A DNA stretch of 64,000 nt from an uncultured Solirubrobacterales bacterium (GCA_963703335.1 OY969812.1:972495-1036494), one strand, 5' to 3'. Shown: positions 39,119 through 62,330, numbered from the stretch's first letter. The notes: generated by a model not told the origin, from the sequence alone. A program made the numbers and translations.

Positions 39119-40531
39119 GGCTGCAATAGCGGCGAAAGGCTGAGGTCAGGGGCTAGAGCGCGCATGCGCGGGTCGGCGATGGTCGGGGAGTCTATGGCCT
39201 GCAGAGCCGCTTCGGAGTGGGAAACAGCGCGGTGGAAGGCATAGTCGCCCGCCTGGCCCCGCTTATCGAGGAAGGCCCAGTCGCTGGCCTGGGCCGCGAG
39301 CAGCTCGCGAGTGGCCCGCTCGGCGGCGCCCCCGCGCAGTCCACTCGATAGTGCCCGCAGCAGGCGGAGCTCCAGCCGCCGCGCCCCCCAGGCGAGGTCG
39401 GCGACGGCGGGAGAGTCCCAGGTGCTGAGAATCCTTGTCCTCACCCCAAGTCGAGGCGTGCAGGTGGCGCTCGACCGGCTCGTGCTCGGCCAACGCCTCC
39501 GGCACGGTGAGCAGGCGCACCCCTGCCGCGTCGGCGCCTGCCAGGACCTCGCGCAGCCAGGTCACACCCTCCGACCACCAGTGCCCGAGCAGCTCGGTGT
39601 CGATCGCGAAGACGAGCAGGCCGCGGCGGCCGTGGGACGCGGCGTAGCCACGCAGGCGATCGCCGACAGCGGCGAGGAACTCACCTGCCTGTCGTCGAGC
39701 GGCTGTCTCCGCTGCCGCCGGGTCGTAGCCGCCGCCGCCCACCTTCCATATCCGCACGCCGCGCAACGACTCGCCCGCGAACTGGGCATGAGCCGGATCG
39801 GACGGGTAGCCGCCGAGTGACCAGAGCCACTGGATCGCCTCCCAGTCGATCGGCAGCGCCACCGGGCCGGCCTCGGTTGCGACTGGGGCAAGCGATGCAA
39901 GCGGCTCCTCCTCATTCCGGCTCTGGTCGACGAAGAACCACTCCACCCCGGCCTCCGCCAGGCGCCACTCCAAGCCGGGCGTGTAGGCGCACTCGGGCAG
40001 CCAGAAGCCGCCGCTCCAGCCAAAGCGGCGCCGGTGCGAGCGAATCCCCGCGTCGAGCTGCAACCGCAGGCCCTCGCGGGTGGCGAGCAGCGGCAGCACC
40101 GCATGGGTCGCGGCCGAGGCCGCCAGCGCGATCCGTCCCTCCCCCGCGGCACGCTGAAAAGCTCGCAGCGGATCGCCGCCATGATCGTCAAGCAACTGCA
40201 GAGCCCGGCGATAGCGTGCCTCCTCCGCCTCGCAAGCGTCGCGGCATTCGGCGTCAACCTCGTCGCGGTCCGCGACCGTCGCGGCGATCCGCCAGTCGAC
40301 CAGGAAGCGCCGCAGCCGCTCCCCCACCCCTGCGTCCTCGAGCTGGTCGGCGAGGACCGGGGTAACCGTCATCGTTAGCCGCTCGGCCACCTCGAGCACT
40401 GGCAGGTAGGAGCGGATCACCGCGTCGAACAGCCACTCCTCGCCGAACGGATAGGTCCCGAAGCCCTCGACGTAGGGCATGTGGGAGTGCAGGACGATGG
40501 CGAGGTCGCCAGCGCTCTCCTCAGGGGGCAT
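39115..40531 (-). pseudogene. GH57-family alpha-glucan branching enzyme (Rv3031 type), interrupted by a +1 frameshift near 39430
   Basis: N-terminus LAIVLHSHMPYVEGFGTYPFGEEWLFDAV (GH57). The frame reads ...ASTWGEDKD and then runs into Arg-rich nonsense to 39263. The conserved C-terminus LSTWDSPAVADLAW...LLAAQASDWAFL continues in the +1 frame (track ORF 39115..39444). Removing one T from GATTCTC restores DKDLSTWDSP. Confidence 0.8.
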
Positions 40532-42271: not shown

Positions 42272-43585
42272 CTACACCCCCAGCTGCGCCCGCCGGGCCC
42301 AGCTGGTCTCGACGATCCTGTCAACCACGGGACGGTGCCAGCCCTCCTCCAGCGCCGCCCGTCGGGCCTCCTGCAGGCCCACGATCACGTCCGCCGACCA
42401 ACGCTTGACCAGTGCTGGGAGCTGCCCACCAAGGCCACTGGCGTCGGCGAGCCGCTCCCAGGCCGCCAAATCGACCTCGGCTGGTTGCTCGACCCCCCCA
42501 ATCGACATCGCCATGCGAGCGGTCAGTTCGGGGTAGACCACCGTCGAAACGACGTCGTAAAGGGGCGCCAGGCGCGGGGCGCCCGAGTCGTCATAGAGCA
42601 AGGCGAAGTTCTTGCCGTGCGCATCGCTGTTGCCGAGCATGAAGTTGAGCAGAACAGCCTTGAGGAAGCGGTTGACGTCGAGAGCCGCCCGAGCGCTGCC
42701 GAGCCGGCGCAGCAGGGCGACGACCTGAGCCACGGAGGGGCCCCCGTTCGCCTCGTACTTTGCCCCGGGCAGGATGCCGAGCGCCTGGCACATGTCCTCC
42801 TGGTGAAGGCGGAGGATCCGGCCCTCGTCGTCCTCCGCGCGGTCGAAGCGCTTCACGCTGAGACAGGGCGTTGAGCCGACCTGGACCAGCTCGGTCGTGG
42901 CGACGTCGAGGCCGGCGCCAGCCGCGGCCCGCATGCAGAATGCCTCGTTGGCGGCAAGGTCTTCGTAGCGCCCGTAGTCCGGCTTCAGCAGGCAGGTGCT
43001 GGGTGCACCGTCGAGCGGCTGCCCAAACTCGCCCGAGGGAAGGCGGACCAGGACGAGCTTGTCCTGTACGCCTCCGAGGCTGAGCCGCACGTCCCCCGGT
43101 TCGACCTCGACGCCAAGGGGTCGACGGGGCAGCTCGCCGACCAGCGCGATCAGCTCCTCCTCGCCCAACACCCGCACCGAGGCATCATCGCCGCCATCCG
43201 GCTGCTCGCCCTCGGGCAGCAGGACGACCGCGCCCGCACAGTCAGCTCCAAGCGCATTGAGCAATCCGAAGCCATCCTCCTCGCTGAGACGGAATCTCTC
43301 CGCGATCGTCTTGCGTACCGAGCCCTCCGGCAATAGACCCTCGAAAAAGGGCGCCGACTGACTCGGGGTAAAGGTCTCCCCCTGAAACGGAAGCGAAACC
43401 GAAAGGGCGGCTGCGACCTTCTCTGGCCCAGTCGGAGGCTGCCCCGAATACGTGAAGCGATAACGCGAAGGACCGCACTTCTCGAGCGTTCCGACGGCTT
43501 TCCCGCGAAGGAAGACCGCGAGCTTCGCGCCGGGACGAGGCGGAACCCAGCTGCGACGCGACATCGAATGAGGCTGCGGCGTCAT
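42272..43585 (-). CDS. hipA: HipA-family serine/threonine kinase toxin
   Basis: N-terminal coupling domain (KAVGTLEK...YRFTY), LSLGGVQDKL, and the catalytic region FMLGNSDAHGKNFALL. 4-nt overlap with the hipB-like stop. Confidence 0.88.
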   Translation of the reverse strand: MTPQPHSMSRRSWVPPRPGAKLAVFLRGKAVGTLEKCGPSRYRFTYSGQPPTGPEKVAAALSVSLPFQGETFTPSQSAPFFEGLLPEGSVRKTIAERFRLSEEDGFGLLNALGADCAGAVVLLPEGEQPDGGDDASVRVLGEEELIALVGELPRRPLGVEVEPGDVRLSLGGVQDKLVLVRLPSGEFGQPLDGAPSTCLLKPDYGRYEDLAANEAFCMRAAAGAGLDVATTELVQVGSTPCLSVKRFDRAEDDEGRILRLHQEDMCQALGILPGAKYEANGGPSVAQVVALLRRLGSARAALDVNRFLKAVLLNFMLGNSDAHGKNFALLYDDSGAPRLAPLYDVVSTVVYPELTARMAMSIGGVEQPAEVDLAAWERLADASGLGGQLPALVKRWSADVIVGLQEARRAALEEGWHRPVVDRIVETSWARRAQLGV

Positions 43586-43833
43586 TGGTTTTTTGCGGGT
43601 GCCCGCTCGCGATCAGCAGCGATCAGCTCGAGGCCAAGCACATCCAAGACCGGCGCGATGCTGTCGAGCCGGCTCGTCGGCTTGCCGTGCTCGATCTGGT
43701 GGACCGCACGGGTGCTCACCCCGGCGGCGAAGGCCAGCTCGTCCTGGCGCAGGCCCAGCGACGTGCGTGAGTTACGGACTGCCTCACCGATCCGTTCGGC
43801 GCTTCTCGTGGCGGCATCCAGCTTTATCTGCAT
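43582..43833 (-). CDS. hipB: HipB-like XRE-family antitoxin or regulator
   Basis: IGEAVRNSRTSLGLRQDELAFAAGVSTRAVHQIEHGKPTSRLDSIAPVLDVLGL. Confidence 0.85.
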   Translation of the reverse strand: MQIKLDAATRSAERIGEAVRNSRTSLGLRQDELAFAAGVSTRAVHQIEHGKPTSRLDSIAPVLDVLGLELIAADRERAPAKNQ

Positions 43834-45046: not shown

Positions 45047-46548
45047 GCGGTCGCCACGCTACCGCCACGGCGCGGATCGCCGCCACCACTCAGCGCGCCG
45101 GTGGTGTGATCGCGGGCGACGGCCTGGGTGCCGCCGAAGAAGAGGTTGATCGCCGGCCGGCGCAGGACCGGCACGCCGCGGGCCTCGATCCGCGCCAGTG
45201 CTTCCTCGTCGATACCGGGCTCCGCCTGGACGACACCCTGCTCGTAGTGCAGCCGCGGCGCCCGTACTGCCTCGTCGGCGCTCATCCCCTGCTCGACCGC
45301 CCGCACGATCGTCTGCAGGATCGCCGAGCGGATGCGGTTGGAGCCGGCGCTGCCAAGGCCGAGCTCGATCTCGCCGTCGCGCAGCACCACGGTGGGCGCC
45401 ATCATCGAGGGGACCCGCCGCCCGGCGGCAATCGCGTGGAACCCGAGCGGGTTGAGGTCCTCCTCGCCGAGCATGTTGTTGAGAATCACCCCCGTGCCGG
45501 GAACGAGCACGCCCGAGCCCGAGCCGTTCGAGCAGGTGACGTTGGCGCACATGCCGTTCTTGTCCAGGGCGGAGATGTGGGTGGTCGAGCCGAGCAAGTC
45601 GCCAGCTGTGGCATCAAGGGTCGTGGGATCGAGCAAGCTGGCCTCGAGGCCGGTCCCGTAGAGCGCCTCGGCAAACGCCTCGCCGCGGGCGGCGTTAGCC
45701 GCACCCATCGCGGCTACGAGCTGCTCGGGGCCGGTGCACTCGCCAAGCCGCTCGAGCAGCGCGAGGCAGTAGGCGATCAGGATGCCCCCGGATGAGGGCG
45801 GCGGATTGGTCAGCACCTCGGTGCCGCGGAAGGTGGCGCGGATCGGCTCGCGCTCGATCGGCTCGTAGGCGGCGAGGTCGCCGCGGCCAAGGGTGCCACC
45901 GTTCTCGACGACGTAGTCGCTCAGCGCCTCCGCCACCTCGCCGTGGCAGAAGGGCTCGGCGCCTTCGGCCCCGAAGCGTTCGAGCGCCTCCGCCAGTTCC
46001 TCGAAGCGGAAGAGCTCACCCTCGCGCAGCCTGCGCCCCGTCGGCGCATACAGCTCTCGCGTGCCCTCCAGGCGCGCGTGGATCGGCTCGAGGATCTCGA
46101 GGATGTAGGCCTGCTCGGCGTTGACAGGCGCCCCGTCGCGGGCGAGGCGAATGCCGGACTCGGCCAGCGCCGCGAGCGGCATCGTGCCGAAGCGCCGCAG
46201 CGCTGCCTCCAGCCCGGCAGCCGTTCCGGGGACTCCACAGGAGGCGGGGCCGACGTAGAACGTCTGAACGGTCTCCGCGTCGAAGTGGACCGGAACGGGT
46301 GCCAGCTCGGAGCCCCGCTCGATCCCGTCGCGGCCCGGAGCCGCGACAAAGAAGTCGAGCAGCACCGTCTCCCCGTCGCGATGGACCATCATGAAGCCGC
46401 CGGCTCCGAAACCGGTCAGCGGGCTCTCGACCGCGAACGAGGCGAGCGCCGCGGCGACAGCCGCATCAACCGCGTTACCGCCTTCGCGCAGGACCTCGGC
46501 TCCGGCCTCGGCGGAGAGTGGATGGCCCGCGGCGACGACCCCGCTCAT
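45043..46548 (-). CDS. ggt: Gamma-glutamyltransferase
   Basis: GSTTHISALDKNG (autoprocessing Thr), PGTGVILNNMLGEED and GSAGSNRI. Confidence 0.93.
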   Translation of the reverse strand: MSGVVAAGHPLSAEAGAEVLREGGNAVDAAVAAALASFAVESPLTGFGAGGFMMVHRDGETVLLDFFVAAPGRDGIERGSELAPVPVHFDAETVQTFYVGPASCGVPGTAAGLEAALRRFGTMPLAALAESGIRLARDGAPVNAEQAYILEILEPIHARLEGTRELYAPTGRRLREGELFRFEELAEALERFGAEGAEPFCHGEVAEALSDYVVENGGTLGRGDLAAYEPIEREPIRATFRGTEVLTNPPPSSGGILIAYCLALLERLGECTGPEQLVAAMGAANAARGEAFAEALYGTGLEASLLDPTTLDATAGDLLGSTTHISALDKNGMCANVTCSNGSGSGVLVPGTGVILNNMLGEEDLNPLGFHAIAAGRRVPSMMAPTVVLRDGEIELGLGSAGSNRIRSAILQTIVRAVEQGMSADEAVRAPRLHYEQGVVQAEPGIDEEALARIEARGVPVLRRPAINLFFGGTQAVARDHTTGALSGGGDPRRGGSVATA

Positions 46549-46562
46549 CGGCCGGAAGGACG

Positions 46563-47975
46563 CTACCCGGGCAGGAACTCTGGGACGTCGATGCCGAGCT
46601 CGCCCGACCGCTCCCGACCGCCCGAGCGCGGCGCCTCTTTGGTGCGCCGGATCATCGGCTCGGCCACGCGGCGTGGCGGCGCGGCACGGCCGTCGAAGCG
46701 GGTCGCGACGACGGTCACCCAGACCTGGTCGCCGAGCTCCTCGTCAACGTTGGCGCCGAAGATGATGTTTGCGTCAGGGTGAGCCGCTTCGCCAACTAGC
46801 TTGGCGGCCTCACTGACCTCGACCAGCGAGAGGTCGGCGCCGCCGGTAATCGAGAGCAGGATCGCCCTGGCCCCCTCCATCGAGGTCTCCAGCAGCGGCG
46901 AAGAAATCGCTTTTTCAGCTGCGAGCAGGGCACGGCCCTCGCCGTGACCCATACCGATGCCGAGCAGGGCCCGGCCGGCTTCCGACATGATCGTGCGCAC
47001 GTCGGCGAAGTCGAGGTTGATTACCGCCGGCAGCGTGACCAGGTCGGAAATTCCCTGCACACCCTGGCGCAGCACGTCGTCGGCGACCTGGAAGGCCTCC
47101 ACCATTGAAGTTTGTTGGTCGAGCACCTCGAGCAGGCGGTCGTTGGGGACGACGATCAGCGTGTCGACCTCGGCCGCGAGTTCCTCGATGCCCTTGTTGG
47201 CCTGGTTGCCGCGGCGACTGCCCTCGAAGCTGAACGGCTTGGTGACGATGCCGACCGTGAGGGCGCCGACCTCACGGGCGAGGCGGGCGATCACCGGAGC
47301 GGCACCGGTGCCCGTACCGCCGCCCGCACCGGCGGCGACGAAAACCATGTCGGAGCCCTTCAGCAGCCGCTTGATCTTGTCCTGTTCCTCAAATGCGGAG
47401 CGATGGCCAAGCTCGGGGTCGGCGCCGGCCCCGAGCCCTCGCGTCGCCTCGTCACCAATGTGGACGGTGACATCGGCGACGCACAACTGGAGTGACTGAA
47501 GATCTGTGTTGACCGCCATGAACTCGACGCCCGGGATCCGCGCCTCGACCATTCGGTTGACCGCGTTCACACCCCCGCCGCCAACCCCCACAACCCGAAT
47601 CACAGGCTGATGCGGCTCCCCACTCCCCGGCGGCTCATACTCAGGCTCCTCCCGCCCATACCGAGGCGATTCCACAATCGGCTCAATCTCCCGCCGCCGA
47701 CCCGGCTCCTCCGAGAACACACGCTTAAGCCGCTCCGGGGGCGTCTCCTGATGTTGCCCTTCGAGAGATGAGCTCTCTGGTCCCTCGCCGTGAACCGAAG
47801 GCGCTTCTCCGGCGGGTGGCGTGGCGGTGGGCTCCTCGCCCGCAGCTTGCGAGGACGAGGAGTCCTCTGCCGCGACAGGACCCGCCGGCCGAGCGTCGTC
47901 GTCCTCTGCGGTCGACCGGAAAAGATCAGACAGAGGCCCCTCACGCATGCTGGCCCGCTTTTTACGCCGACTCAT
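46563..47975 (-). CDS. ftsZ: Cell division protein FtsZ with a ~125-aa N-terminal extension
   Basis: VIRVVGVGGGGVNAVNRM, NTDLQSL, GAGGGTGTGAAPV and the C-terminal peptide GIDVPEFL. ATG 47975 is preceded by AAGGAGG (9-nt spacer) and overlaps the last codons of the parA-like gene. Alternative starts are ATG 47948 or a canonical-position GTG at 47603. Confidence 0.9.
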   Translation of the reverse strand: MSRRKKRASMREGPLSDLFRSTAEDDDARPAGPVAAEDSSSSQAAGEEPTATPPAGEAPSVHGEGPESSSLEGQHQETPPERLKRVFSEEPGRRREIEPIVESPRYGREEPEYEPPGSGEPHQPVIRVVGVGGGGVNAVNRMVEARIPGVEFMAVNTDLQSLQLCVADVTVHIGDEATRGLGAGADPELGHRSAFEEQDKIKRLLKGSDMVFVAAGAGGGTGTGAAPVIARLAREVGALTVGIVTKPFSFEGSRRGNQANKGIEELAAEVDTLIVVPNDRLLEVLDQQTSMVEAFQVADDVLRQGVQGISDLVTLPAVINLDFADVRTIMSEAGRALLGIGMGHGEGRALLAAEKAISSPLLETSMEGARAILLSITGGADLSLVEVSEAAKLVGEAAHPDANIIFGANVDEELGDQVWVTVVATRFDGRAAPPRRVAEPMIRRTKEAPRSGGRERSGELGIDVPEFLPG

Positions 47976-49083
47976 GCTCCAGAACCTCCTTCGCCAGGTC
48001 GCGGTAGTAGCCCGCGGCGTTGCTCTGGGGATCGTACTTGAGCACGCTGGCACCCTTGACCGGGGCCTCGGCGAACTTGATCGCCTTGCGAATGCGTGAC
48101 TTGAAGACGAGCTCGCCGAAGTTCTCCTCGAGGATCTCCACTGCCTCCTTAGCGTGGACAGTACGACTGTCGAGCATCGTCGGCAGGATGCCCTCTATCC
48201 GCACGTCGGGATTGAGGTTCTCCTGGATCATCTTCAGCGTGTTCTGGAGCTGGACCAGCCCGCGCATCGAGAGGTACTCACACTGGACCGGCACGATCAC
48301 CTTGTTGGCGGCGGTGAGCGCGTTGATGGTCAGTAGGCCGAGGCTCGGCGGTGTGTCTATGCAGACGAAGTCGTAGTTGCCGGAGACCTCTTTCAACGCC
48401 TTCTCCAGCGAGCGCTCGCGACCGATCTTGGTGCTCATCGCGATCTCCGCGCCGGCCAAATCGATCGAGGCAACAGCGATGTCGATCTCGCGGTGCTGAA
48501 TGATCTCCGAGATCGGCATGTCGTGGACCAACACGTCATAAAGGCTCTTTTCCACCTTGTCCGGATCGATCCCCTGACTCATAGTCAAATTCCCCTGCGG
48601 GTCGAGGTCGATGCAGAGGACTTTGTGCCCAGACTCAGCAAACGCCACAGCCAAGTTCAAAGTGGTCGTCGTCTTAGCAACCCCACCCTTCTGATTGGCA
48701 AAAGCAATCACCTCAGCATGCTTAACCGACCCCTCCGGCTCAGCCTTCTCCACGACGGCCTCATGCCTGCTCGGCGCAAGCAAATCCCTGGGCATAAACC
48801 GCTCGGGCTCGTCCCCACCTTGCTCAGCGTCAGCTGCCTCAGCCGATGGAGCAGTGGTGTCAACCTCAACCGCTCCTCCGGCGGGTGGCGTCGCAGGGGG
48901 GACCGCCCCCGAGGACGCTTTAGCGACCGCAGGGGGCGGTGGGTCCCCTGCGACGACAGGACCCGCCGGCCGAGCGCTCTCAGGCACAGCCTGCTCCATC
49001 TCCTCCAGCTCCTCGACGATCGGATGCGTCTCGTCGGCAGCAGGCGCGGGCGCGAACTTGTTCTTGCGGCTAAGGAATCCCAT
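47962..49083 (-). CDS. ParA/Soj/MinD-family ATPase with a ~115-aa N-terminal extension
   Basis: VIAFANQKGGVAKTTTTLNLAVAFAESGHKVLCIDLDPQGNLT (deviant Walker A) and FVCIDTPPSLG. A canonical-position alternative start is the GTG at 48711. Confidence 0.88.
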   Translation of the reverse strand: MGFLSRKNKFAPAPAADETHPIVEELEEMEQAVPESARPAGPVVAGDPPPPAVAKASSGAVPPATPPAGGAVEVDTTAPSAEAADAEQGGDEPERFMPRDLLAPSRHEAVVEKAEPEGSVKHAEVIAFANQKGGVAKTTTTLNLAVAFAESGHKVLCIDLDPQGNLTMSQGIDPDKVEKSLYDVLVHDMPISEIIQHREIDIAVASIDLAGAEIAMSTKIGRERSLEKALKEVSGNYDFVCIDTPPSLGLLTINALTAANKVIVPVQCEYLSMRGLVQLQNTLKMIQENLNPDVRIEGILPTMLDSRTVHAKEAVEILEENFGELVFKSRIRKAIKFAEAPVKGASVLKYDPQSNAAGYYRDLAKEVLEHESA

Positions 49084-50069
49084 TGCGCGGGTATTCGCAT
49101 GACCACCCGCTTTTCCTGCCGCCCCCAGAAATTGCTAGGAATCACCCGGTAACCGATCTCCTCGACAAGCGAGTGGTCTTCGTCACCGGCAAGGGGGGCG
49201 TTGGCAAGACCACGGTTGCCGTGGCGCTTGGCCTGCGCGCCGCCTCGGAAGGCAAGCGGACGATCGTCTGCGAGGTCTCCTCGCAGGAGAACGCCTCACG
49301 CATGTTCGATCACACCGAGGTCGGCTTCCACGAGATCGAGATGGAGGAGAACCTCTGGTCGATCTCGATCGACCCCGATGAGTCGATGCGCGAGTACGTG
49401 CTGCTGCAGCTCAAGGTGCGGGCAATGCGCGACATGCTCTTCCGCAGCCGCATCTTCAATTACCTCGCCGCTGCCACGCCCGGGCTCAAGGAGCTGGTCA
49501 CGATCGGCAAGATCTGGGAGCTGGCCCAGCTCGACCGCAAGGTCAAGAGCGGCCGCAAGTATGACCTGGTGATCGTCGACGCGCCCGCCACCGGCCACGG
49601 CATCGGCTTCCTGCAGACGCCGCGCACCTTCGCCGCGATCGCTCGCGTCGGCCCGATCCACTCGCAGGCCCAGCAGCTCGACCGACTGATCACCGACCGC
49701 GAGCACACCGGCGTGGCGATCGTCGCCCTGCCCGAGGAGATGCCGGTCAACGAGTCGGCAGCACTAGAGCAGGACCTGCGCGACGAGGTCGGCGTCGCCG
49801 TCGACCGCGTCTACATGAACGGCCTCTACCCGGAGCGCTTCTCCAACGAGGAGGCGGAGCGGCTCGCCGAGCTCTCCACCGCCGAAAACGGCGCTCTGCG
49901 GGCGGCTGCGCGGGCGGGTCTCTCCGAGCACAACCGGGCCCGCTCCCAGCGCGCCCAGCTGGCCCGCTTGCGACGGCGGGTGAAAGCACCGGTCAAGACC
50001 CTGCCCTTCCTCTTCGAGCCGGAGCTCGGCCCCGAGGGCGCCCGGCAGCTGGCACGGAGACTGGGCTGA
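49083..50069 (+). CDS. ArsA/Get3-like ATPase (Rv3679 type)
   Basis: VVFVTGKGGVGKTTVAVALG and DLVIVDAPATGHGIGFL. The start is uncertain: TTG 49083 (track) or GTG 49173. Confidence 0.8.
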   Translation: MRGYSHDHPLFLPPPEIARNHPVTDLLDKRVVFVTGKGGVGKTTVAVALGLRAASEGKRTIVCEVSSQENASRMFDHTEVGFHEIEMEENLWSISIDPDESMREYVLLQLKVRAMRDMLFRSRIFNYLAAATPGLKELVTIGKIWELAQLDRKVKSGRKYDLVIVDAPATGHGIGFLQTPRTFAAIARVGPIHSQAQQLDRLITDREHTGVAIVALPEEMPVNESAALEQDLRDEVGVAVDRVYMNGLYPERFSNEEAERLAELSTAENGALRAAARAGLSEHNRARSQRAQLARLRRRVKAPVKTLPFLFEPELGPEGARQLARRLG

Positions 50070-51220
50070 TGCCGGCGATCGGCGACATTCTCGACGGCAA
50101 GGACATCTGCATCTGCGCCGGTTCCGGTGGCGTCGGCAAGACGACCACCTCGGCCGCGATCGCGGCGGGGATGGCCGCGCGCGGCCTCAAGGTCTGCGTG
50201 CTGACGATCGATCCGGCGAAGCGGCTGGCCGACTCGCTCGGCCTGAAGGAGCTCGGCAACGAGGCCAGGCAGGTTGACCCCGCACTCTTCGAGCAGCACG
50301 GCGTCGAGATCAAGGGCGAGCTCTGGGCGATGATGCTCGACGCCAAGGCAACCTTCGACGAGCTAGTGGCGCGCCAGGCGCCGGATGAGGAGGCGCGCGA
50401 TCGCGTCCTCGGCAACCGCATCTACCAGCAGATCTCCAGCGCCCTGGCTGGCTCGCAGGAGTACATGGCGATGGAGAAGCTCTTCGAGCTGCACAGCGAA
50501 GGCCAGTTCGACCTGCTGGTGCTCGACACTCCGCCGACCCGCAACGCGCTCGACTTCCTCGACGCCCCGAAACGTCTCACCCAGTTCATCGAAGGCCGCT
50601 CGCTTCGCGTCTTCATGAAGCCGACCGGCTTCGCGGCAAAGGTCGCCGGCCGCGGCGCCTCTGTGGCCCTCTCTGTCTTCAAGCGCATCGTCGGCTTTGA
50701 CCTGCTCGCCGACCTAGCGGAGTTCTTCAACGCCTTCAGCGGCATGGTCGACGGCTTCCAGGCCCGGGCCAAACGGGTCAACAGTCTGCTCGCCGATCCC
50801 CATACCTGCTTCCTTGTCGTCTGCGGTCCGCAGGGCGAGCCGGTCGACGAGGCGGTCTACTTCCACCGCAAACTGGTCGAGGCGAAACTCCCCTTTGGCG
50901 GCGTGATCGTCAACAAGGTTCACTACCCGGCGGAGGAGCTGCGCGGCGGCGGCGAAAACCTGGAGACATCCCTAATCGAGAAGCTCGGCGACGGGGAGCT
51001 GGCTAAACGGGTTGCCGAGAACTTCGCCGACTACCAAGCGCTGGCCGAGCGGGACGCTCGCAACATCGAGCGCCTCGCCCGCGAGCTGCGTGCCCAGGGC
51101 GTAATCCGCGTGCCCTATCTGGACGAGGACGTCCACGACCTCGCCGGCCTGGCCGAGATCAACCGCTACCTCTTTGCCAGCAGCGAGGAGCGAATCGAGA
51201 TCGCCGCCGGTCGGGCTTAG
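50069..51220 (+). CDS. ArsA/Get3-like ATPase (Rv3680 type)
   Basis: ICICAGSGGVGKTTTSAAIA, LTIDPAKRLADSLG and LVLDTPPTRNALDFL. ATGA-type junction with the upstream ATPase. Confidence 0.85.
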   Translation: MPAIGDILDGKDICICAGSGGVGKTTTSAAIAAGMAARGLKVCVLTIDPAKRLADSLGLKELGNEARQVDPALFEQHGVEIKGELWAMMLDAKATFDELVARQAPDEEARDRVLGNRIYQQISSALAGSQEYMAMEKLFELHSEGQFDLLVLDTPPTRNALDFLDAPKRLTQFIEGRSLRVFMKPTGFAAKVAGRGASVALSVFKRIVGFDLLADLAEFFNAFSGMVDGFQARAKRVNSLLADPHTCFLVVCGPQGEPVDEAVYFHRKLVEAKLPFGGVIVNKVHYPAEELRGGGENLETSLIEKLGDGELAKRVAENFADYQALAERDARNIERLARELRAQGVIRVPYLDEDVHDLAGLAEINRYLFASSEERIEIAAGRA

Positions 51221-52824
51221 CCCGCGTGGCGGTAATGGTCGTACTTCAACTCCCGGACCTCCCAGTCCGCGTCCTCGGGCACCGGGAAGAGGTGCCGCAC
51301 GCGCGGGGTATCAATGCGCTCGCGGTGCTGAACGTCGCCCTCGATCGCGGGGAAATCGAGTGTGCTGTCCGGAGCCTCCACCTCGTCTAGCCAAGGCGTG
51401 GCGGTGATGCGAATCTCGCCCTCGTCCGGAATCGGCTCGAGGATGCGGGTCTCTTGATCCATGTCCATGTGCTCCTCCTCGGGCGGCGGAAGGTCGGCCA
51501 TTGGGGGTTCGTCGACGATCGGGGTCTCGCGTGAAACAACGATCTCCTCTGCTGCTGGAAATTCCTCGGATACCGCGATCTCGGGGTCGCCGGCGCCGAG
51601 GCCAGTGGCGATCAGCGTCTCGTCGGCGGCGGTATTGAGATCGGCGCTGAGCTCGCCCAGGGCGGCGTCGCGCAGGAGGCGGCGAACGCCTTCCTCGATC
51701 CAGCCCGCCGTCGCGAGCCCGGGCAGCGAAGGTGTTCCGTTCATCAGCGAACGCTCCAGCTCGAGGGCACTCTCGATCCGTTCGCGAGCCTCGATCCGAT
51801 CGACGCTCTCGTCCGCGATGAGCGCAGAGGCGCGCATCGGCAGCGAGGCGCCCACTGGGCCCTGGCCGTCGAGCACGGCGCGCAGGGCGAGCAGATGATC
51901 GCTCAGCCCCTGCAGTGCGGACTCGCGACCGCAGCCCATCTCGAAGCGGCCGACGGCCCAGGAGAGGGCGCCATCGGGATCGGGGCGGGCCTCCAGCGTC
52001 GCGGCAAACTCGGCAAGCTGAATCGCCTCGTCCTCGCTGAGGTCGTAGGAGCCGGATCGGGTCGCCGGCGCTCCGGTCGCGAGACGAGCCCATCGTCCCT
52101 CGCCGGTCGGGGCAAAGGCGTAGGGACCGAGGCCGACGCTGCCGGCTTTGAAGAGATGCATGACGCTGATCAGCTCGCCGAGCTGGTGCAGGGCCGAGTC
52201 GGCGCTGTCGGGACCGTCGCCCTGTTCGGCGAGAGCGAGAAATTGGGGTTGCCAGGCGACGCGACCCATGCCCTCGCTGCGCATCGCCTCGATTGGCGCC
52301 TCGATCGCGTCGGCGCGGACGATCTGGACGCCGTGGGGAAGCTGCAGGCGCGGCAGCGGCATGCGCAGGCCGACCAACGGCGCGATCAGGATGTCCGCGT
52401 CCTCGGCGCCGCGCGTCTCGGCGTCGAGCACGGCGAGGGCGTTTTTCAGGCGCTCGTGATCGAGAGAAAGTTCGGTGCAACCGTCCCAGAGCGAGGCGAG
52501 GAAGACGGTCAGCATCTGCGCGGCACGCTCGCCAGGGTCGCCGGGGACCTGCTCGCCGCGGGCTTCCAAGTAGGCGGCGGCGATACCGGCAGCAGCGACC
52601 GCGTCGCGGGCCGAGCCGAAGGCCTCGAGGCTACGCAGCTCGGTCTCGCGTTCGCGCACGTACTGCGAGGTCAGCGGCTGGTAGCTGTAGAAGAGCGAGT
52701 CATCGCCGCTGTCGGCATCGACGTCGAAGGGGATCTGGTCCCCACCGGCGACGAGGCCGCTGAGCTTGATCGCCGCCTCAGAGGCAAGACGGGTCAGCGA
52801 TTCGGTGAGCAGACGATCGCGCAC
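51217..52824 (-). CDS. Hypothetical protein, 535 aa, with an acidic C-terminal tail
   Basis: Long ORF with protein-like composition and no TM helix or motif I recognise. The C-terminal ~110 aa are D/E/P-rich. It is convergent with the second ArsA-like gene and overlaps it by 4 nt. Confidence 0.55.
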   Translation of the reverse strand: MRDRLLTESLTRLASEAAIKLSGLVAGGDQIPFDVDADSGDDSLFYSYQPLTSQYVRERETELRSLEAFGSARDAVAAAGIAAAYLEARGEQVPGDPGERAAQMLTVFLASLWDGCTELSLDHERLKNALAVLDAETRGAEDADILIAPLVGLRMPLPRLQLPHGVQIVRADAIEAPIEAMRSEGMGRVAWQPQFLALAEQGDGPDSADSALHQLGELISVMHLFKAGSVGLGPYAFAPTGEGRWARLATGAPATRSGSYDLSEDEAIQLAEFAATLEARPDPDGALSWAVGRFEMGCGRESALQGLSDHLLALRAVLDGQGPVGASLPMRASALIADESVDRIEARERIESALELERSLMNGTPSLPGLATAGWIEEGVRRLLRDAALGELSADLNTAADETLIATGLGAGDPEIAVSEEFPAAEEIVVSRETPIVDEPPMADLPPPEEEHMDMDQETRILEPIPDEGEIRITATPWLDEVEAPDSTLDFPAIEGDVQHRERIDTPRVRHLFPVPEDADWEVRELKYDHYRHAG

Positions 52825-53344: not shown

Positions 53345-54238
53345 TCAGGTGTGCCCGGTGACCACCGGGTAGACCTTGAGCACGGTGATCTTGTAGCGGA
53401 CACCGGCGGTGCCGAAGACGAAGGTCTCGGGGAAGTTCGGCTCGACTTCGATCAGCTGACAGGCGTTGGCGCCGGAGAGGCAGCTCGCTTCGCCGAAGAC
53501 GGCCGTGACCTGATCGGAGATCAGCAGCAGCGGCTTGCGCGTGGTCGGGCTGATTCCCATGTAGGTGACGACCTGGGCGTTTTCGCCGGGCAGGGCCGCC
53601 GGCGGGATCACCTTGTGGCGAACGATCGGGTCGTCGGTCAGCTTTTGGCCGTCGGCGCTGCTCGTCGTGCGGACGATCTTGACGTCGGCCGCAAAGCTGT
53701 AGAGCGTCAGCTGCGGGGCCTTGCCTCCTTCACTCCCAGGGGTCGATTCGCCGTCGGTTTCGGCGGTGACTTTGGTCGTCGAAGTGCCGTCCGGGTTCTT
53801 CGTGGTCTTCGTGACCTTGGTCGTACTCGTCGAGGTCGACGTCGTCGATGTACTCGACGACGATGCTTCATCGCCGCCGCCGCCGAGCTTGGTGCCCGCC
53901 AGCTGCGGCGACGTATAGCGCTGCACGAAGGGGTCCGTCGGATGCTCGCGCAGTCGCTTGCGGTAGTCGCGCAGACCGGGCTTGGCCTCAACCACGGTCA
54001 GCTTCGCGCCCGCCGGTTCCGGGCTGGGCGCGCTGGAAGCTCCGGCGACAGCGGGGGCCACTTCTTCTTCTTCCGAGCCACCTCCGAGCAGGAACGGCAC
54101 CGCGATGATCGCGACGATCGCCAGGCCGACCAGCGGCAGCAAGCGGCGGTCGCGCAGATCCCAGTACAGGTCGACGAGGAAGTCGGGAACCTTCAGATCG
54201 GGCATCTTCAGCTCCGGGCCCGCTTTCAGCCGTTTCAC
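53345..54238 (-). CDS. Single-pass membrane protein of the pilus operon (unknown; possible PilP-like component)
   Basis: An N-terminal TM helix (LLPLVGLAIVAIIAVPFLL), a Ser/Thr-rich linker (SSSTSTTSTSTSTTKVTKTTK) and a C-terminal beta-rich domain. 4-nt overlap with the pilO-like stop. Confidence 0.5.
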   Translation of the reverse strand: MKRLKAGPELKMPDLKVPDFLVDLYWDLRDRRLLPLVGLAIVAIIAVPFLLGGGSEEEEVAPAVAGASSAPSPEPAGAKLTVVEAKPGLRDYRKRLREHPTDPFVQRYTSPQLAGTKLGGGGDEASSSSTSTTSTSTSTTKVTKTTKNPDGTSTTKVTAETDGESTPGSEGGKAPQLTLYSFAADVKIVRTTSSADGQKLTDDPIVRHKVIPPAALPGENAQVVTYMGISPTTRKPLLLISDQVTAVFGEASCLSGANACQLIEVEPNFPETFVFGTAGVRYKITVLKVYPVVTGHT

Positions 54239-55002
54239 GGTGCGCCTCCCGTTGTCGTCGCGGCGGGCGTTGCGACGGCTTCTTCGGGACCGGTGGGCAA
54301 CGCTCCCGCTGTCGTGCCTTGGCTCGGGGGCGTCAGGTAGGTGGTAACCGAGAAGGTCGCCTGCAGGTTGGGGAATTTCGCTTCCGAGTCTTCGCCCAGC
54401 GAGAAGCCGTTGACGGTGATCAGCCTGCCGTCGACGCCGACGCCTTCGTTGGTCGTCTTTACCAGCGAGTCGAGGCCCTTGATGAAGTCGGCAATGGTGA
54501 AGAAGTTGCCCGTAAAGGCGAGCTTGTAGGGCATCACGGCAAGGCCCGCCGGGCCGACTGCGGCACCGAGCGACATCAGCGAGGCGGCTGCCTCCGTCGG
54601 GGAGACGGTTTCTCCACCCGCGGCAACGGGGCTCGCTTCGCCTTCCGATTCGGACCCTGCGGCTTCAAGGCTCAGGGTCTGGAACCTGACGCCGGCATCG
54701 TTGGCGACGTGGTTCAGCTGGACGAGCAGCGTCGCGGTTTCGTCTTCGCTGGGCACGGCCTTGCCGAGGACCACGAGGTGCTGGTAGTCGGTGGGGAATT
54801 CGCTGCGCGCTTCTTCGGCCGTGGCGATTTCTCCTTCGTGCTGCGCAAGGAAGCCTTCCAGCTGGGTGACCTGAGCGTCGAGCTTGCTCGCTTCCTCGCG
54901 CTTTGGGCTGAGCAGGAGAATCCAGAACGCCCCGGCCAGGACGGCGACGGCCAGCATCGCGCCGACCATCAGATTGGTGACCTTCTTCTCCTTCGCCTTC
55001 AT
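54235..55002 (-). CDS. pilO: PilO-like type IV pilus assembly protein
   Basis: An N-terminal TM helix, then a coiled coil (KLDAQVTQLEGFLAQHEGEIATAEEA) and a ferredoxin-like C-terminal part. Its position directly after pilN supports the call. Confidence 0.65.
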   Translation of the reverse strand: MKAKEKKVTNLMVGAMLAVAVLAGAFWILLLSPKREEASKLDAQVTQLEGFLAQHEGEIATAEEARSEFPTDYQHLVVLGKAVPSEDETATLLVQLNHVANDAGVRFQTLSLEAAGSESEGEASPVAAGGETVSPTEAAASLMSLGAAVGPAGLAVMPYKLAFTGNFFTIADFIKGLDSLVKTTNEGVGVDGRLITVNGFSLGEDSEAKFPNLQATFSVTTYLTPPSQGTTAGALPTGPEEAVATPAATTTGGAP

Positions 55003-55775
55003 CAGCCTTCGCCCCCTTCTTCGGAGCTTTCTTCCGAGCCTTCGGAGGATTCGCTGGAGGTCGTTTCGGCGACCGCCGTCGCAGCGATGGCTTCTTCGCC
55101 TTCGGCCGCCGGCACCGGAGCCGCGTCGAACGCGACCACGAGGCTGAACTGGGCGATGGACTCACGTGTGCGGCAGTCGTCGCCTCCGCCCGAGCCGCTG
55201 CCCGCCTCGTCCCCCTCGCTGGCGAGTTCGGAGGTCTGGATGCCGACTCGGGTGACGCCGTCGATGTCCTTGAGAATGGTGACGAACCCGGCGACCGCTT
55301 CCTGGCCGGCGGCGCAGCCGCTCAGTTCGAGCGCCGGACCGGCGATGCCGCCCCGCAACCCGGACGCAGAACCGCCTTCCGCCCCCGTCGAGTCGCTGGG
55401 GGTCGCGGAGCCGGTCAGGCTGGTAAGCCAGACGTCGCTGGGCAGGACGAGCGAGAGTTCGCGCATTACCCGCTCCCAGTCGAAGCGGCTGTCGGCGAGG
55501 CTCCTAACCGTCGCGATCCGCTGTTCGCTCAGCGCCTTGAATTGCGAGTAGGCGGCAAGCCGCTCGGCCTTTGCCGCGGCGACCGCGTCTTCCCGCTTTA
55601 GCGTTGCGACTTCAGCCTTGCCATCCGAGATCCGGTTGTCCGTGAGGACCAGCATGGTGACGCCGATCAGGAGCAGCGCCAGCGCCCCCAGGACGATGTA
55701 CATCACCGGTCCGGTGCGAAGCTGGGCGTGCTCGCCACGGCGCTGCTCGGGAGGGATCAGGTTGACCGGGCGCAT
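55002..55775 (-). CDS. pilN: PilN-like type IV pilus assembly protein
   Basis: MRPVNLIPPEQR (conserved PilN N-terminus that binds PilM), then a TM helix and a coiled coil. Confidence 0.75.
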   Translation of the reverse strand: MRPVNLIPPEQRRGEHAQLRTGPVMYIVLGALALLLIGVTMLVLTDNRISDGKAEVATLKREDAVAAAKAERLAAYSQFKALSEQRIATVRSLADSRFDWERVMRELSLVLPSDVWLTSLTGSATPSDSTGAEGGSASGLRGGIAGPALELSGCAAGQEAVAGFVTILKDIDGVTRVGIQTSELASEGDEAGSGSGGGDDCRTRESIAQFSLVVAFDAAPVPAAEGEEAIAATAVAETTSSESSEGSEESSEEGGEG

Positions 55776-55778
55776 CGC

Positions 55779-56897: not shown

Positions 56898-56974
56898 CGG
56901 CCCTCTCTCAATCGACAGAAAGGCCGCAGACCTTTGCCCTGCAACTACTTATTTCTAGGAGAACCTGGACGGGC

Positions 56975-57730: not shown

Positions 57731-57733
57731 GCG

Positions 57734-62189: not shown

Positions 62190-62256
62190 CTTTGGTCCTA
62201 TCGGCTGGATCGGGAATTTCGCTTAACGCTTGACGCCAAGCGCTGGCCAAACGAGC

Positions 62257-62285
62257 AAGGGGCGGGCCAATTTGGCCCGCCCCTT
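62257..62285 (-). terminator. Stem-loop downstream of pilA
   Basis: AAGGGGCGGGCC-AATTT-GGCCCGCCCCTT, a perfect 12-bp stem, 46 nt after the pilA stop. On the minus strand it is followed by GCTCGTTTGG. Confidence 0.6.
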
Positions 62286-62330
62286 GGCACGTTGCGCCTG
62301 GCTAGACCAGGCCGATCCGTCGGGCCGCTG

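What the first reader, a model, noticed from the sequence alone, without database searches (positions are those of the whole stretch)
46563..49083. A parA-like ATPase is translationally coupled to ftsZ, and both proteins carry a homologous N-terminal extension
What the sequence shows:
- The parA-like stop (TAA 47962-47964) lies inside the first codons of the ftsZ ORF. The ftsZ ATG at 47975 follows a strong AAGGAGG.
- Both ORFs stay open for about 110-125 codons upstream of their canonical cores (KGGVAKTT in ParA, GVGGGGVNAV in FtsZ).
- The two extensions share identical DNA blocks: 23 nt CGACAGGACCCGCCGGCCGAGCG (47873-47895 = 48954-48976) and 16 nt CTCCGGCGGGTGGCGT (47807-47822 = 48876-48891).
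- Both blocks sit in the same reading frame as each ORF, giving ARPAGPV and TPPAG. The spacing between blocks differs by exactly 12 nt, an in-frame indel. A PER(L/F) segment follows in both proteins.

What is known: ParA/MinD-family ATPases (MinD, MipZ, PomZ) position the Z ring. ftsZ normally sits at the end of the dcw cluster after ftsQ/ftsA, not behind a parA-like gene.

Inference: a dedicated ParA-type FtsZ-positioning module. The shared disordered N-terminal peptide could be a common docking, tethering or regulatory handle. I am not aware of a described system with this architecture.
Basis: partly seen in the sequence, partly recalled or inferred. Interest (0 to 1): 0.78.

Follow-up and report, generated by a model that had tools for sequence, protein, structure and literature searches.

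The report
Palindromic repeat inside parA and ftsZ
The DNA blocks shared by the parA-like and ftsZ genes are two copies of a hairpin-forming repeat that sits in frame in the floppy tails of many unrelated essential proteins, so they are not a cell-division docking handle; the overlap of the parA-like gene with ftsZ is real and is kept in all 80 relatives examined.

Summary
On the minus strand, the parA-like gene (49083..47962) overlaps ftsZ (ATG 47975) by 14 nt behind AAGGAGG. Both genes have ~120-codon N-terminal extensions, and the 23-nt and 16-nt identical blocks exist.

parA-ftsZ adjacency holds in all 80 related Solirubrobacterales loci. The 14/17-nt overlap is kept in 71 of 76 loci. The extensions evolve like coding sequence.

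The shared blocks, however, are the two arms of a palindromic cassette: 80 nt in ftsZ (47809-47888) and 92 nt in parA (48878-48969).
- Its ends are conserved (GCGGGTCCTGTC ... GCCACCCGC). Its interior varies but keeps base pairing: 13 of 34 pairs show compensatory changes.
- In relatives it is present or absent in either gene, and cassette types are swapped between the genes.
- It also sits, inverted, in a GH57 gene.
- A pattern scan found at least 120 metagenomic loci, and only one is parA-ftsZ. In-frame hosts include ribosomal proteins S1, S2, S5, S9 and L19, NusA, DnaX, RecG, GrpE and E2 acyltransferases.
- With the cassette removed, the two extensions show no similarity.

The closest analogue is the Rickettsia palindromic element. 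No Rfam family matches. A functional ParA-FtsZ link remains plausible from gene order alone.

The parts
47962..49083 (-). parA-like ATPase gene (373 aa), an orphan ParA/MinD-family protein
   Evidence: Pfam AAA_31 8.7e-62, CbiA and MipZ. No NCBIfam model reaches its cutoff. Best solved relatives are 4pfs/5ihp/5if9 at 1e-61, then Soj at 1e-50 and MinD at 1e-16.
48667..48690 (-). Deviant Walker A motif KGGVAKTT of the ParA-like protein
   Evidence: Read from the sequence and translation.
48715..49083 (-). ParA-like N-terminal extension (~123 codons), translated and disordered in composition
   Evidence: The conserved segments MGFLSRKNKF, HPIVEELE.MEEAVPE and EPERFMPRDLLAPSRHE vary mainly at codon position 3 across 62-69 loci.
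48878..48969 (-). Palindromic cassette, 92-nt type I (apical loop GCUAAAGC), in frame in parA; encodes PAGPVVAGDPPPPAVAKASSGAVPPATPPAG
   Evidence: (I3). Folds at -90 kcal/mol, z = -5.5. Family alignment A2 is 96.8% paired, with 13 of 34 pairs showing compensatory change.
47962..47975 (-). 14-nt overlap of the parA stop with the ftsZ start (ATGAGTCGGCGTAA)
   Evidence: A 14- or 17-nt overlap is present in 71 of 76 related loci.
47985..47991 (-). Shine-Dalgarno-like AAGGAGG for ftsZ, inside the 3' end of parA
   Evidence: An AGGAGG-like site is present in 74 of 75 loci.
46563..47975 (-). ftsZ (470 aa)
   Evidence: Pfam Tubulin 2.4e-44 and FtsZ_C 6e-31. NCBIfam TIGR00065 equivalog scores 411 bits against a cutoff of 295.
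47601..47975 (-). FtsZ N-terminal extension (125 codons) with conserved short motifs: ASMREGPLSDLFRST, TPPERLKRVFSEEP and PRYGREEPEYEPPGSGEPHQPVIRVVG
   Evidence: Codon-position diversity is 0.05/0.01/0.52, 0.16/0.02/0.44 and 0.04/0.04/0.41 across 78-81 loci. Only 31 representatives, 52-323 aa long apart from one low-complexity 1750-aa hit and consistent with gene fragments, match it among 1.84 billion proteins.
47809..47888 (-). Palindromic cassette, 80-nt type II (apical CGCAAGCUGCG), in frame in ftsZ; encodes PAGPVAAEDSSSSQAAGEEPTATPPAG
   Evidence: (I1). Folds at -63 kcal/mol, z = -2.4. In the type II family, 13 of 25 pairs have two or more Watson-Crick types. An identical interior occurs in unrelated metagenomic hosts: L087 (host not identified) and, nearly identical, the NusA-like protein of L093.
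46572..46589 (-). FtsZ C-terminal conserved peptide DVPEFL
   Evidence: Read from the translation. That this matches the canonical FtsZ C-terminal peptide is my own knowledge.

Best explanation
Two separate things are superimposed here.

(1) A conserved parA-like/ftsZ gene pair. This clade of uncultured Solirubrobacterales keeps an orphan ParA-like ATPase gene whose stop codon overlaps the ftsZ start by 14-17 nt, with the ftsZ ribosome-binding site inside parA. The two are therefore very probably co-transcribed and translationally coupled (inferred from sequence). Each protein has its own lineage-specific, translated, disordered N-terminal extension.

(2) A dispersed palindromic cassette. The blocks the two extensions share are independent copies of a hairpin-forming repeat of 81 or 93 inserted nt. 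Its ends are conserved (5'-GCGGGTCCTGTC ... GCCACCCGC-3'), and its interior is free to change as long as the two arms stay complementary. The element spreads or is copied around the genome by an unknown mechanism. Selection keeps only copies that do no harm: those in intergenic DNA, or those in disordered tails and linkers, in a reading frame without stops and with a length that is a multiple of three. Such copies add about 27-31 Pro/Ala/Gly/Ser-rich residues. Nearby copies, such as the parA and ftsZ copies 1.07 kb apart, are homogenised by gene conversion or replaced, which makes them look like a shared module.

Shown: the dispersal, the hairpin and its covariation, the in-frame hosts, presence/absence among relatives, and within-genome homogenisation.
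Inferred: mobility, neutrality, and gene conversion as the homogenising process.
For: The blocks are hairpin arms.
- The two blocks are reverse complements of each other (I1 and I3).
- Predicted folds: -63 kcal/mol (z = -2.4) for the ftsZ copy and -90 kcal/mol (z = -5.5) for the parA copy.

The hairpin is maintained.
- In 47 type I copies, 96.8% of cells are paired. 13 of 34 pairs (132 cells) show changes on both sides. 0 of 500 shuffles reach these values, and slid controls give 45-52% paired.
- Type II behaves the same way: 13 of 25 pairs covary.
- The covarying outer pair (CG 20, GC 19, AU 3, UA 3) falls on two synonymous third-codon positions.

Both constraints act at once.
- In parA, ftsZ and the GH57 gene, the main cassette lengths between the outer arms run 74, 80, 86, 92 and 98 nt. 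They differ by 6, i.e. an even number (hairpin) and a multiple of 3 (in frame).
- Intergenic copies take any length.

The element is dispersed.
- Pfam-confirmed in-frame hosts are S1, S2, S5, S9, L19, NusA, DnaX, RecG, E2 acyltransferase and GrpE.
- About 30 of 130 copies lie in coding-like ORFs in the same PAGPV frame, and 26 of those 30 have lengths equal to 2 mod 3.

The element is polymorphic.
- Among 76 relatives, both genes carry it in 42, only ftsZ in 12, only parA in 12, and neither in 10.
- Either type can occupy either gene.
- A third site lies at the 5' end of a GH57 gene, in inverted orientation. L010 is empty (MREPDPPLPETVGDL) and L039/L025 carry 93 extra nt.

Copies turn over.
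- Interior identity between the parA and ftsZ copies of one genome is 0.717, against 0.638 between genomes (0 of 2000 permutations reach the observed mean).
- Copies at the same gene in different genomes are no more alike than copies in different genes. 11 genomes have interiors at least 90% identical.

Nothing else is shared.
- Without the cassette the extensions give BLASTP E = 3-4.

The operon part holds.
Against: - No transposase, target-site duplication or other mobilisation signature was identified. The empty and filled GH57 sites allow only an ambiguous 2-3-bp duplication (GCC or CC).
- Copy number in the source genome could not be measured. The 64-kb window holds only these two copies.
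- The ends are very strongly conserved, with an asymmetric internal loop (CCU and a bulged U opposite a single C). Copies also occur in low-GC genomes. Both facts would fit recognition by a conserved factor, and hence a host function.
- Occupancy of both parA and ftsZ in 42 of 76 relatives is high for a purely neutral passenger.
- Copies inside genes are more often in the sense orientation (about 40 sense to 23 antisense).
Confidence: 0.85

Rival explanations
1. One reading: the shared disordered peptide (ARPAGPV ... TPPAG ... PERL/F) is a homologous docking or tethering handle common to ParA and FtsZ, and it defines a dedicated Z-ring positioning module.
For: Both copies are in frame and in the same orientation, within N-terminal extensions of an overlapping gene pair. 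Both genes carry the cassette in 42 of 76 relatives. The peptide comparison gives E = 1e-6.
Against: - The same cassette occurs in frame in S1, S2, S5, S9, L19, NusA, DnaX, RecG, E2 acyltransferase and GrpE.
- It is absent from one or both division genes in 34 of 76 relatives whose proteins are otherwise intact.
- The interior peptide is replaced wholesale between genomes, e.g. SSSSQAAGEEP versus PPPPAVAKASSGAV.
- The covarying positions are synonymous, so selection acts on nucleic-acid pairing rather than on the peptide.
- The inverted copy in the GH57 gene encodes a different peptide.
- No similarity is left once the cassette is removed.
Confidence: 0.03
2. The hairpin is a host-used cis-acting nucleic-acid signal, not just a passenger. 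A conserved protein would recognise the hairpin base as RNA or single-stranded DNA. The signal would affect mRNA stability, translation or DNA transactions of many growth genes, parA and ftsZ among them.
For: - The ends and the asymmetric internal loop are nearly invariant, while the stem covaries.
- Copies with the same ends occur in intergenic DNA of low-GC genomes, some about 20 nt upstream of a start codon.
- There is an excess of sense-orientation copies inside genes.
- Hosts are mostly highly expressed housekeeping genes.
Against: - Close relatives differ in presence or absence at the same site.
- Both orientations occur.
- Positions vary: N-terminal, C-terminal and internal linkers.
- G:U intermediates are almost absent in type I (5 one-sided against 132 two-sided changes). 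This fits a DNA palindrome better than an RNA helix.
- No Rfam family matches.
- The apparent host bias may only reflect where long disordered tails exist.
Confidence: 0.12
3. A local segmental duplication copied the 5' part of one gene onto the other, so the shared blocks are remnants of a single parA/ftsZ-specific duplication.
For: Direct repeats D1 and D2, plus a weak 26-nt match just upstream (47944-47969 versus 49096-49121, 73%), lie in the same order in both genes.
Against: Similarity stops at the cassette borders. The two window copies are different structural types (80 and 92 nt). Identical cassettes occur in unrelated genes elsewhere. The upstream match is in a different reading frame and is no better than other chance repeats in the region.
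Confidence: 0.02

Closest known systems
Rickettsia palindromic elements (RPEs): selfish palindromic repeats inserted in frame in protein-coding genes (Ogata et al. 2000, as summarised in PMC10969869)
   Same: A dispersed multi-copy palindromic repeat, inserted in frame in many unrelated, often essential genes. It adds a peptide segment the protein tolerates, and orthologues differ in presence or absence.
   Different: - Size: the cassette is 64-98 nt between its ends here, against about 150 bp for RPEs.
- Conservation: only the hairpin base is conserved, and the interior is replaced with compensatory changes. RPE families, by contrast, have a conserved peptide.
- Host: a free-living, high-GC soil actinobacterial lineage, with look-alike copies in low-GC genomes.
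- Location: copies sit specifically in disordered tails and linkers.
- Sequence homology to RPEs was not tested.
REP/BIME-type extragenic palindromes and MITEs in general (PMC10969869)
   Same: Short, imperfect, abundant palindromes found singly or as inverted pairs (e.g. L092, L171, L146), many of them intergenic.
   Different: A large share of copies are intragenic and in frame. No GTAG-type 5' tetranucleotide was seen. No clear terminal repeats plus target-site duplication were found. No associated RAYT or other transposase was identified (not testable here).
Orphan ParA-like division ATPases of Actinobacteria: PldP of Corynebacterium glutamicum and Rv1708/MSMEG_3743 of mycobacteria (PMC10482377, PMC3989709)
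   Same: A Soj/ParA-like deviant Walker A ATPase without an adjacent parB, in an actinobacterium that, as far as the window shows, has no min genes nearby. The published proteins affect septum placement.
   Different: MSMEG_3743 has Ms scpA (MSMEG_3742) as the next-numbered gene. Here the gene overlaps ftsZ instead. Here the protein carries a ~120-residue N-terminal extension.
MinD, MipZ and PomZ: ParA/MinD-family regulators of Z-ring position
   Same: Same ATPase superfamily (Pfam MipZ 1.9e-13; MinD structures at 1e-14 to 1e-16). The link to FtsZ here is suggested by gene order.
   Different: No minC/minE, parB or pomXY partner was seen among the annotated neighbours. The protein is closer to Soj-type ParA than to MinD or MipZ. 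No functional evidence exists.
[quoted passage not shown]
   Same: Coding sequence with dyad symmetry that can be read through.
   Different: PARCELs are tandem arrays of a 25-residue amphipathic motif in surface proteins. The elements here are single dispersed hairpins that encode low-complexity linkers.

Membership tests
FtsZ (NCBIfam TIGR00065) | Whole-protein score above the curated equivalog cutoff, with Tubulin/FtsZ GTPase and FtsZ_C domains | tested here: met
   411 bits against a cutoff of 295. Tubulin 2.4e-44 and FtsZ_C 6e-31.
FtsZ (NCBIfam TIGR00065) | Location at the end of a dcw cluster, and being the only ftsZ in the genome | tested here: not met
   No dcw gene was found among 30 annotated neighbours between 22 and 64 kb. 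Whether a second ftsZ exists elsewhere in the 2.96-Mb genome could not be tested.
ParA/MinD deviant Walker A ATPases | KGGxxK[ST] P-loop and the AAA_31/CbiA fold | tested here: met
   KGGVAKTT at 48690-48667. AAA_31 8.7e-62. Soj and ParA structures at 1e-47 to 1e-61.
Chromosomal ParAB-parS partition system | An adjacent parB gene; NCBIfam ParA_partition score above cutoff | tested here: not met
   The downstream gene is ftsZ, and the upstream neighbours are two ArsA-like ATPases. ParA_partition scores 118 bits against a cutoff of 180.
MinD | minC/minE neighbours; MinD equivalog score | tested here: not met
   minD_bact scores 55 bits against a cutoff of 213. No min genes are among the neighbours. 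A C-terminal membrane-targeting helix was not examined.
In-frame palindromic repeat elements (RPE-like) | Multi-copy and dispersed in unrelated loci | tested here: met
   At least 120 metagenomic loci, of which one is parA-ftsZ. Three sites occur within the 21-kb neighbourhood in relatives.
In-frame palindromic repeat elements (RPE-like) | Palindromic, hairpin-forming sequence | tested here: met
   (minimum free energies of -33 to -76 kcal/mol across copies).
In-frame palindromic repeat elements (RPE-like) | Inserted in frame in ORFs of unrelated proteins | tested here: met
   Ten host families confirmed by Pfam.
In-frame palindromic repeat elements (RPE-like) | Empty and filled orthologous sites | tested here: met
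   GH57 site: L010 is empty, L025/L039 are filled (+93 nt).
In-frame palindromic repeat elements (RPE-like) | Sequence homology to described RPE families | not tested
   No RPE reference sequences were at hand. None is expected, given the GC content.
MITE / REP | Terminal inverted repeats with a target-site duplication, or a GTAG-type motif with a RAYT gene | tested here: inconclusive
   Only an ambiguous 2-3-bp duplication is possible at the GH57 site. Flanks simply extend the stem by 2-3 bp. No transposase search of a whole genome was possible.
Curated structured RNA families (Rfam 15) | A match to a covariance model | tested here: not met
   No hit at E <= 1 in window 46000-49600. Only two weak matches (E = 0.43 and 0.7, far below gathering scores) appeared in 20 metagenomic loci. 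One, a lncRNA model (HOTTIP_3), spans the L184 cassette at low quality; the other lies elsewhere.

The most novel reading that the evidence does not exclude
The cassette may be more than selfish DNA. It could be an undescribed, cross-phylum class of structured nucleic-acid signal, in which a conserved factor recognises the hairpin base GCGGGUCCUGUC/GCCACCCGC. The host would use it to mark growth and division genes: ribosomal proteins, NusA, DnaX, ParA-like and FtsZ. Independently, the overlapping parA-like/ftsZ pair could encode a new ParA-type Z-ring positioning system in Solirubrobacterales.
Probability: 0.12. Interest if true: 0.8.

Novelty: new variant of a known kind. Interest (0 to 1): 0.5.

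Why it matters
- It removes a false lead. The apparent shared handle of ParA and FtsZ is repeat DNA, so it should not guide interaction experiments.
- It documents an RPE-like phenomenon outside obligate intracellular bacteria. A hairpin repeat lives in frame inside ftsZ, ribosomal protein genes, nusA and dnaX of abundant soil Actinomycetota. Selection acts at once on base pairing and on the reading frame. This is a natural experiment on how disordered protein tails absorb selfish DNA.
- It is also a trap for homology searches and for annotation of N-terminal extensions.
- The conserved overlap of an orphan parA-like gene with ftsZ, outside any dcw cluster in this window, gives a concrete candidate for division-site control. 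Actinobacteria generally lack Min and Noc (per the literature found; not checked in this genome).

Tried and rejected
- Cassette peptide search: the first query was too short. The second found no candidate sharing enough 5-residue words, probably because the peptide is low-complexity. One capped search was wasted.
- Literature search for the conserved decamer GGGTCCTGTC or its complement: only unrelated primers and similar sequences.
- Rfam on the window and on 20 metagenomic loci: nothing meaningful.
- Promoter and terminator scan of 46300-49400: no sites. This is uninformative for this organism.
- GC3 profile of the extensions: GC3 is 0.68-0.69 against 0.83 in the cores, which is ambiguous on its own. 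It was replaced by comparative codon-position diversity.
- Representative-library search with the FtsZ extension: 31 hits, 52-323 aa long apart from one 1750-aa low-complexity hit and consistent with gene fragments. The extension is lineage-restricted, and nothing was learned beyond the clade.
- Longest-ORF classification of cassette hosts: unreliable in high-GC DNA. It was replaced by a GC3-filtered classification.
- Neighbours of the low-GC copies: no common flanking gene.
- Known structured RNAs: I considered SRP RNA, Y RNA, integron attC sites and Tn3-type inverted repeats from memory as identities for the conserved ends. None fits, and none was detected by Rfam.
- Not achievable with the caps: a genome-wide copy count, a search for a second ftsZ or a dcw cluster, and a test of parA-ftsZ adjacency outside this clade.
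Full report
**1. Checking the observation**

Both genes are on the minus strand. The parA-like ORF runs 49083..47962 (373 aa). ftsZ runs from ATG 47975 to 46563 (470 aa).

The parA TAA (47964-47962) lies inside the first codons of ftsZ, so the genes overlap by 14 nt (ATGAGTCGGCGTAA). AAGGAGG sits at 47991-47985.

Pfam places the Tubulin/FtsZ GTPase domain from FtsZ residue 126 and AAA_31 from ParA residue 124. Both proteins therefore have extensions of about 120 residues.

The identical 23-nt and 16-nt blocks exist and extend to 43 nt at 84% and 53 nt at 75% identity (alignment).

Each gene therefore contains one long hairpin.

**2. The gene pair in relatives**

FtsZ has hundreds of close relatives at 78-93% identity, all full length including the extension. 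A genome scan returned 80 loci, 72 titled Solirubrobacterales; the other eight are titled Actinomycetes (3), Actinomycetota, Conexibacteraceae, Thermoleophilia and Chloroflexota.

- In all 80 loci a parA-like gene lies immediately upstream of ftsZ.
- The stop/start overlap is 14 nt in 55 loci and 17 nt in 16 loci, out of 76. An AGGAGG-like site precedes the ATG in 74 of 75.
- The extensions are translated. Conserved segments outside the shared block vary mainly at codon position 3:

| Protein | Segment | Diversity at codon positions 1/2/3 |
|---|---|---|
| FtsZ | ASMREGPLSDLFRST | 0.05 / 0.01 / 0.52 |
| FtsZ | TPPERLKRVFSEEP | 0.16 / 0.02 / 0.44 |
| FtsZ | PRYGREEPEYEPPGSGEPHQPVIRVVG | 0.04 / 0.04 / 0.41 |
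| ParA | MGFLSRKNKF | 0.09 / 0.13 / 0.21 |
| ParA | HPIVEELE.MEEAVPE | 0.14 / 0.10 / 0.36 |
| ParA | EPERFMPRDLLAPSRHE | 0.21 / 0.09 / 0.43 |

- Five of the six segments have the same profile as the catalytic cores; MGFLSRKNKF shows it only weakly.

The FtsZ extension is lineage-restricted. Only 31 representatives, 52-323 aa long apart from one 1750-aa low-complexity hit and consistent with gene fragments, match it among 1.84 billion representatives.

ftsZ here is a bona fide FtsZ (TIGR00065, 411 bits against a cutoff of 295), but it is not in a dcw cluster:
- Downstream lie gamma-glutamyltranspeptidase, an adenylate cyclase, hipA, methyltransferases and a GH57 enzyme.
- Upstream lie two ArsA-like ATPases, an unknown 535-aa protein and a type IV pilus cluster.

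The ParA-like core is closest to PDB entries 4pfs/5ihp/5if9 (1e-61), then Soj (1e-50), then MinD (1e-16). It reaches no NCBIfam cutoff, so it is an orphan Soj-type ParA.

**3. What the shared block is**

Reading the extensions across relatives gave the decisive clue. The segment between PAGPV and PPAG is nearly identical between ParA and FtsZ within a genome (for example L054, L040, L010). It differs between genomes. It is absent from both genes in some relatives (L020, L078) and from ftsZ only in L080.

At the DNA level there are two main forms, and either form can sit in either gene:
- an 80-nt form with apical CGCAAGCTGCG;
- a 92-nt form with apical GCTAAAGC.

The ends are conserved: 5'-N-GCGGGTCCTGTC ... 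GCCACCCGC-N'-3'. N and N' covary (G:C, C:G, A:T, T:A). Both positions are synonymous third-codon positions (CCN of Pro and GCN of Ala).

Predicted folding energies are -63 kcal/mol (z = -2.4) and -90 kcal/mol (z = -5.5) for the two window copies.

For 47 distinct type I copies:
- the consensus hairpin has 34 pairs and 96.8% of cells are paired;
- 13 pairs (132 cells) carry changes on both sides, with 0 of 500 shuffles as high;
- slid controls give 45-52% paired.

Type II behaves alike, with 13 of 25 pairs showing two or more Watson-Crick types.

One-sided (G:U) changes are almost absent in type I: 5 cells against 132. I read this as favouring maintenance of a DNA palindrome over an RNA helix (inference).

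In parA, ftsZ and the GH57 gene, the main cassette lengths between the outer arms run 74, 80, 86, 92 and 98 nt. These steps of six are expected if both the pairing constraint (even length changes) and the reading frame (multiples of three) apply.

**4. The cassette is dispersed**

In seven relatives a third copy sits about 6-7 kb downstream of ftsZ, at the 5' end of a GH57 gene. It is in inverted orientation and is read in frame as LPAGGVAGG...TGPAGP.

L010 provides an empty site (MREPDPPLPETVGDL). L025 and L039 are filled, with 93 extra nt. At most an ambiguous 2-3-bp duplication is visible at the junctions.

All hits fold as long hairpins.

Flank composition shows three-base periodicity in phase with the PAGPV frame. 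About 30 of 130 copies lie in coding-like ORFs (GC3 >= 0.78) in that frame, and 26 of the 30 have lengths equal to 2 mod 3.

Hosts confirmed by Pfam:
- ribosomal proteins S1, S2, S5, S9 and L19;
- NusA (KH domain);
- DnaX;
- RecG;
- an E2 acyltransferase;
- GrpE.

The cassette is usually in a Pro/Ala/Glu-rich tail or inter-domain linker; two L175 copies lie in what look like membrane-protein loops, in other frames. One of them (L087) has an interior identical to the window's ftsZ copy, in a protein whose family I did not identify.

Other copies are intergenic. Several of these are in low-GC genomes (GC 0.37-0.5), flanked by T- and A-runs, with no common neighbouring gene.

No Rfam 15 family matches.

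**5. Turnover**

Among 76 relatives the cassette is in both genes in 42, only in ftsZ in 12, only in parA in 12, and in neither in 10.

Interior identity between the parA and ftsZ copies of one genome averages 0.717, against 0.638 between genomes (0 of 2000 permutations). Copies at the same gene in different genomes (0.638 and 0.632) are no more alike than copies in different genes. Eleven genomes have interiors at least 90% identical.

The interiors are therefore exchanged or replaced rather than inherited site by site. This is consistent with gene conversion between copies 1.07 kb apart, or with re-insertion (inference).

**6. Nothing else is shared**

With the cassette cut out of the window proteins, or using L020, which lacks it in both genes, BLASTP finds no similarity between the extensions (E = 3.9 and 3.1). 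The shared PER(L/F) is a 4-mer match of the kind expected by chance in two Pro/Glu/Arg-rich 100-residue sequences (my estimate is about 0.6 shared 4-mers).

**7. Mechanism proposed**

Shown:
- a dispersed, hairpin-forming repeat;
- conserved ends and a covarying interior;
- in-frame copies in unrelated proteins;
- presence/absence between close relatives;
- within-genome homogenisation.

Inferred:
- The element multiplies or is copied by an unidentified mechanism.
- Selection keeps only harmless copies. In type I, two of the six reading frames contain a stop and two encode strongly basic peptides. The PAGPV frame and its reverse-strand counterpart encode neutral Pro/Ala/Gly/Ser linkers. This explains the frame bias.
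- The N-terminal extensions of ParA and FtsZ are simply two more disordered regions able to host it.

A host function of the hairpin is not excluded. The invariant base with its asymmetric loop, the cross-phylum copies and the sense-orientation bias argue for it. It is less likely, given the site polymorphism and the occurrence of both orientations.

**8. Comparison with what is known**

The closest phenomenon is the Rickettsia palindromic element, a repeat inserted in frame in many genes (PMC10969869). The present family differs in several ways:
- it is shorter;
- only the hairpin base is conserved;
- it sits in disordered regions;
- it occurs in free-living, high-GC soil Actinomycetota.

REP/BIME elements and MITEs share the palindromic and multi-copy nature, but their defining features could not be shown here. 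PARCELs are tandem amphipathic repeats and differ.

For the ATPase, the closest described proteins are the orphan ParA-like division proteins PldP and Rv1708/MSMEG_3743 (PMC10482377, PMC3989709). MSMEG_3743 has Ms scpA (MSMEG_3742) as the next-numbered gene, not ftsZ. Orthology was not tested.

I found no description of a parA-like gene overlapping ftsZ. That absence covers only the searched library.

**9. Verdict**

The headline claim of a homologous handle is explained away by repeat DNA. What remains is:
- (a) a conserved, probably translationally coupled parA-like/ftsZ pair with lineage-specific disordered extensions, which is a reasonable but untested candidate for division-site control;
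- (b) an apparently undescribed family of in-frame palindromic cassettes, which is interesting in its own right.

Noticed in passing
window 17488-17568: Another strong hairpin (28-nt arms, 89% complementary, 25-nt loop) lies just downstream of the stop of the minus-strand gene 17581-19278. Its ends differ from the cassette, but it shares short strings (GTCAGCGGAC, GTCCGAAC) with the apical part of some cassette variants (L183, L132, L007). It may be a related or a second repeat family.
   Followed up: partly
L025 17332-17424; also L005, L007, L037, L039, L048, L068 (window equivalent is the 5' end of 39263-40531, which is empty): A third cassette site lies about 25 nt into a GH57 gene, in inverted orientation and in frame. 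The GH57 start overlaps the stop of the upstream methyltransferase gene (ATGCGTGA in L025, L010 and L039; ATGCCCCCTGA in the window), a second case of overlapping genes in this neighbourhood.
   Followed up: yes
L164, L082, L103, L123, L094, L108 (metagenomic loci): Hairpins with the same conserved ends occur in intergenic DNA of low-GC genomes (GC 0.37-0.51). L164, L082 and L123 are flanked by a T-run and an A-run that lengthen the stem, and one sits about 20 nt upstream of a start codon. There is no common neighbouring gene. The family is therefore not confined to Actinomycetota.
   Followed up: partly
L146 5382-5467 (+) and 5535-5599 (-); L092, L171, L175: Some hosts carry two cassettes in opposite orientation close together. 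In L146 both are inside the DnaX linker. In L175 they lie in what look like two paralogous membrane proteins (glycosyltransferase-like by eye; not scanned), read in different frames.
   Followed up: partly
window 47601-47975 (FtsZ extension) and relatives L045, L062, L069, L079: The FtsZ extension holds strongly conserved short motifs. In some relatives the PRYGR(E/Q)DP motif occurs twice. The function is unknown. These motifs, not the cassette, are the candidates for interaction sites.
   Followed up: partly
window 49083-51220 (+): Two tandem ArsA/Get3-like ATPase genes are transcribed divergently from the parA-like gene. As listed, the first ORF starts at the same base (49083) as the parA ATG, so the real intergenic and promoter region must be very short.
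   Followed up: no
window 51217-52824 (-), 57734-59521 (-), 59850-62189 (-): Three large ORFs with coding-like composition have no Pfam match. The last two lie next to the type IV pilus genes (PilM/N/O, prepilin peptidase and a pilin-like protein, 54235-62819).
   Followed up: no
window 42272-43833 (-): A hipA-like toxin kinase gene is preceded by an 83-codon ORF that overlaps it by 4 nt. This is probably a hipBA toxin-antitoxin pair.
   Followed up: no
L001, L003, L038, L064, L073, L076, L079: In these long-read metagenome-assembled genomes the parA extension frame is interrupted or shifted (L001, L003, L038, L076, L079) or the parA match is split in two (L003, L064, L073). In L003 the cassette region is read in the basic alternative frame. 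These are likely assembly indels within the GC-rich hairpin, and a caution for automatic annotation.
   Followed up: no
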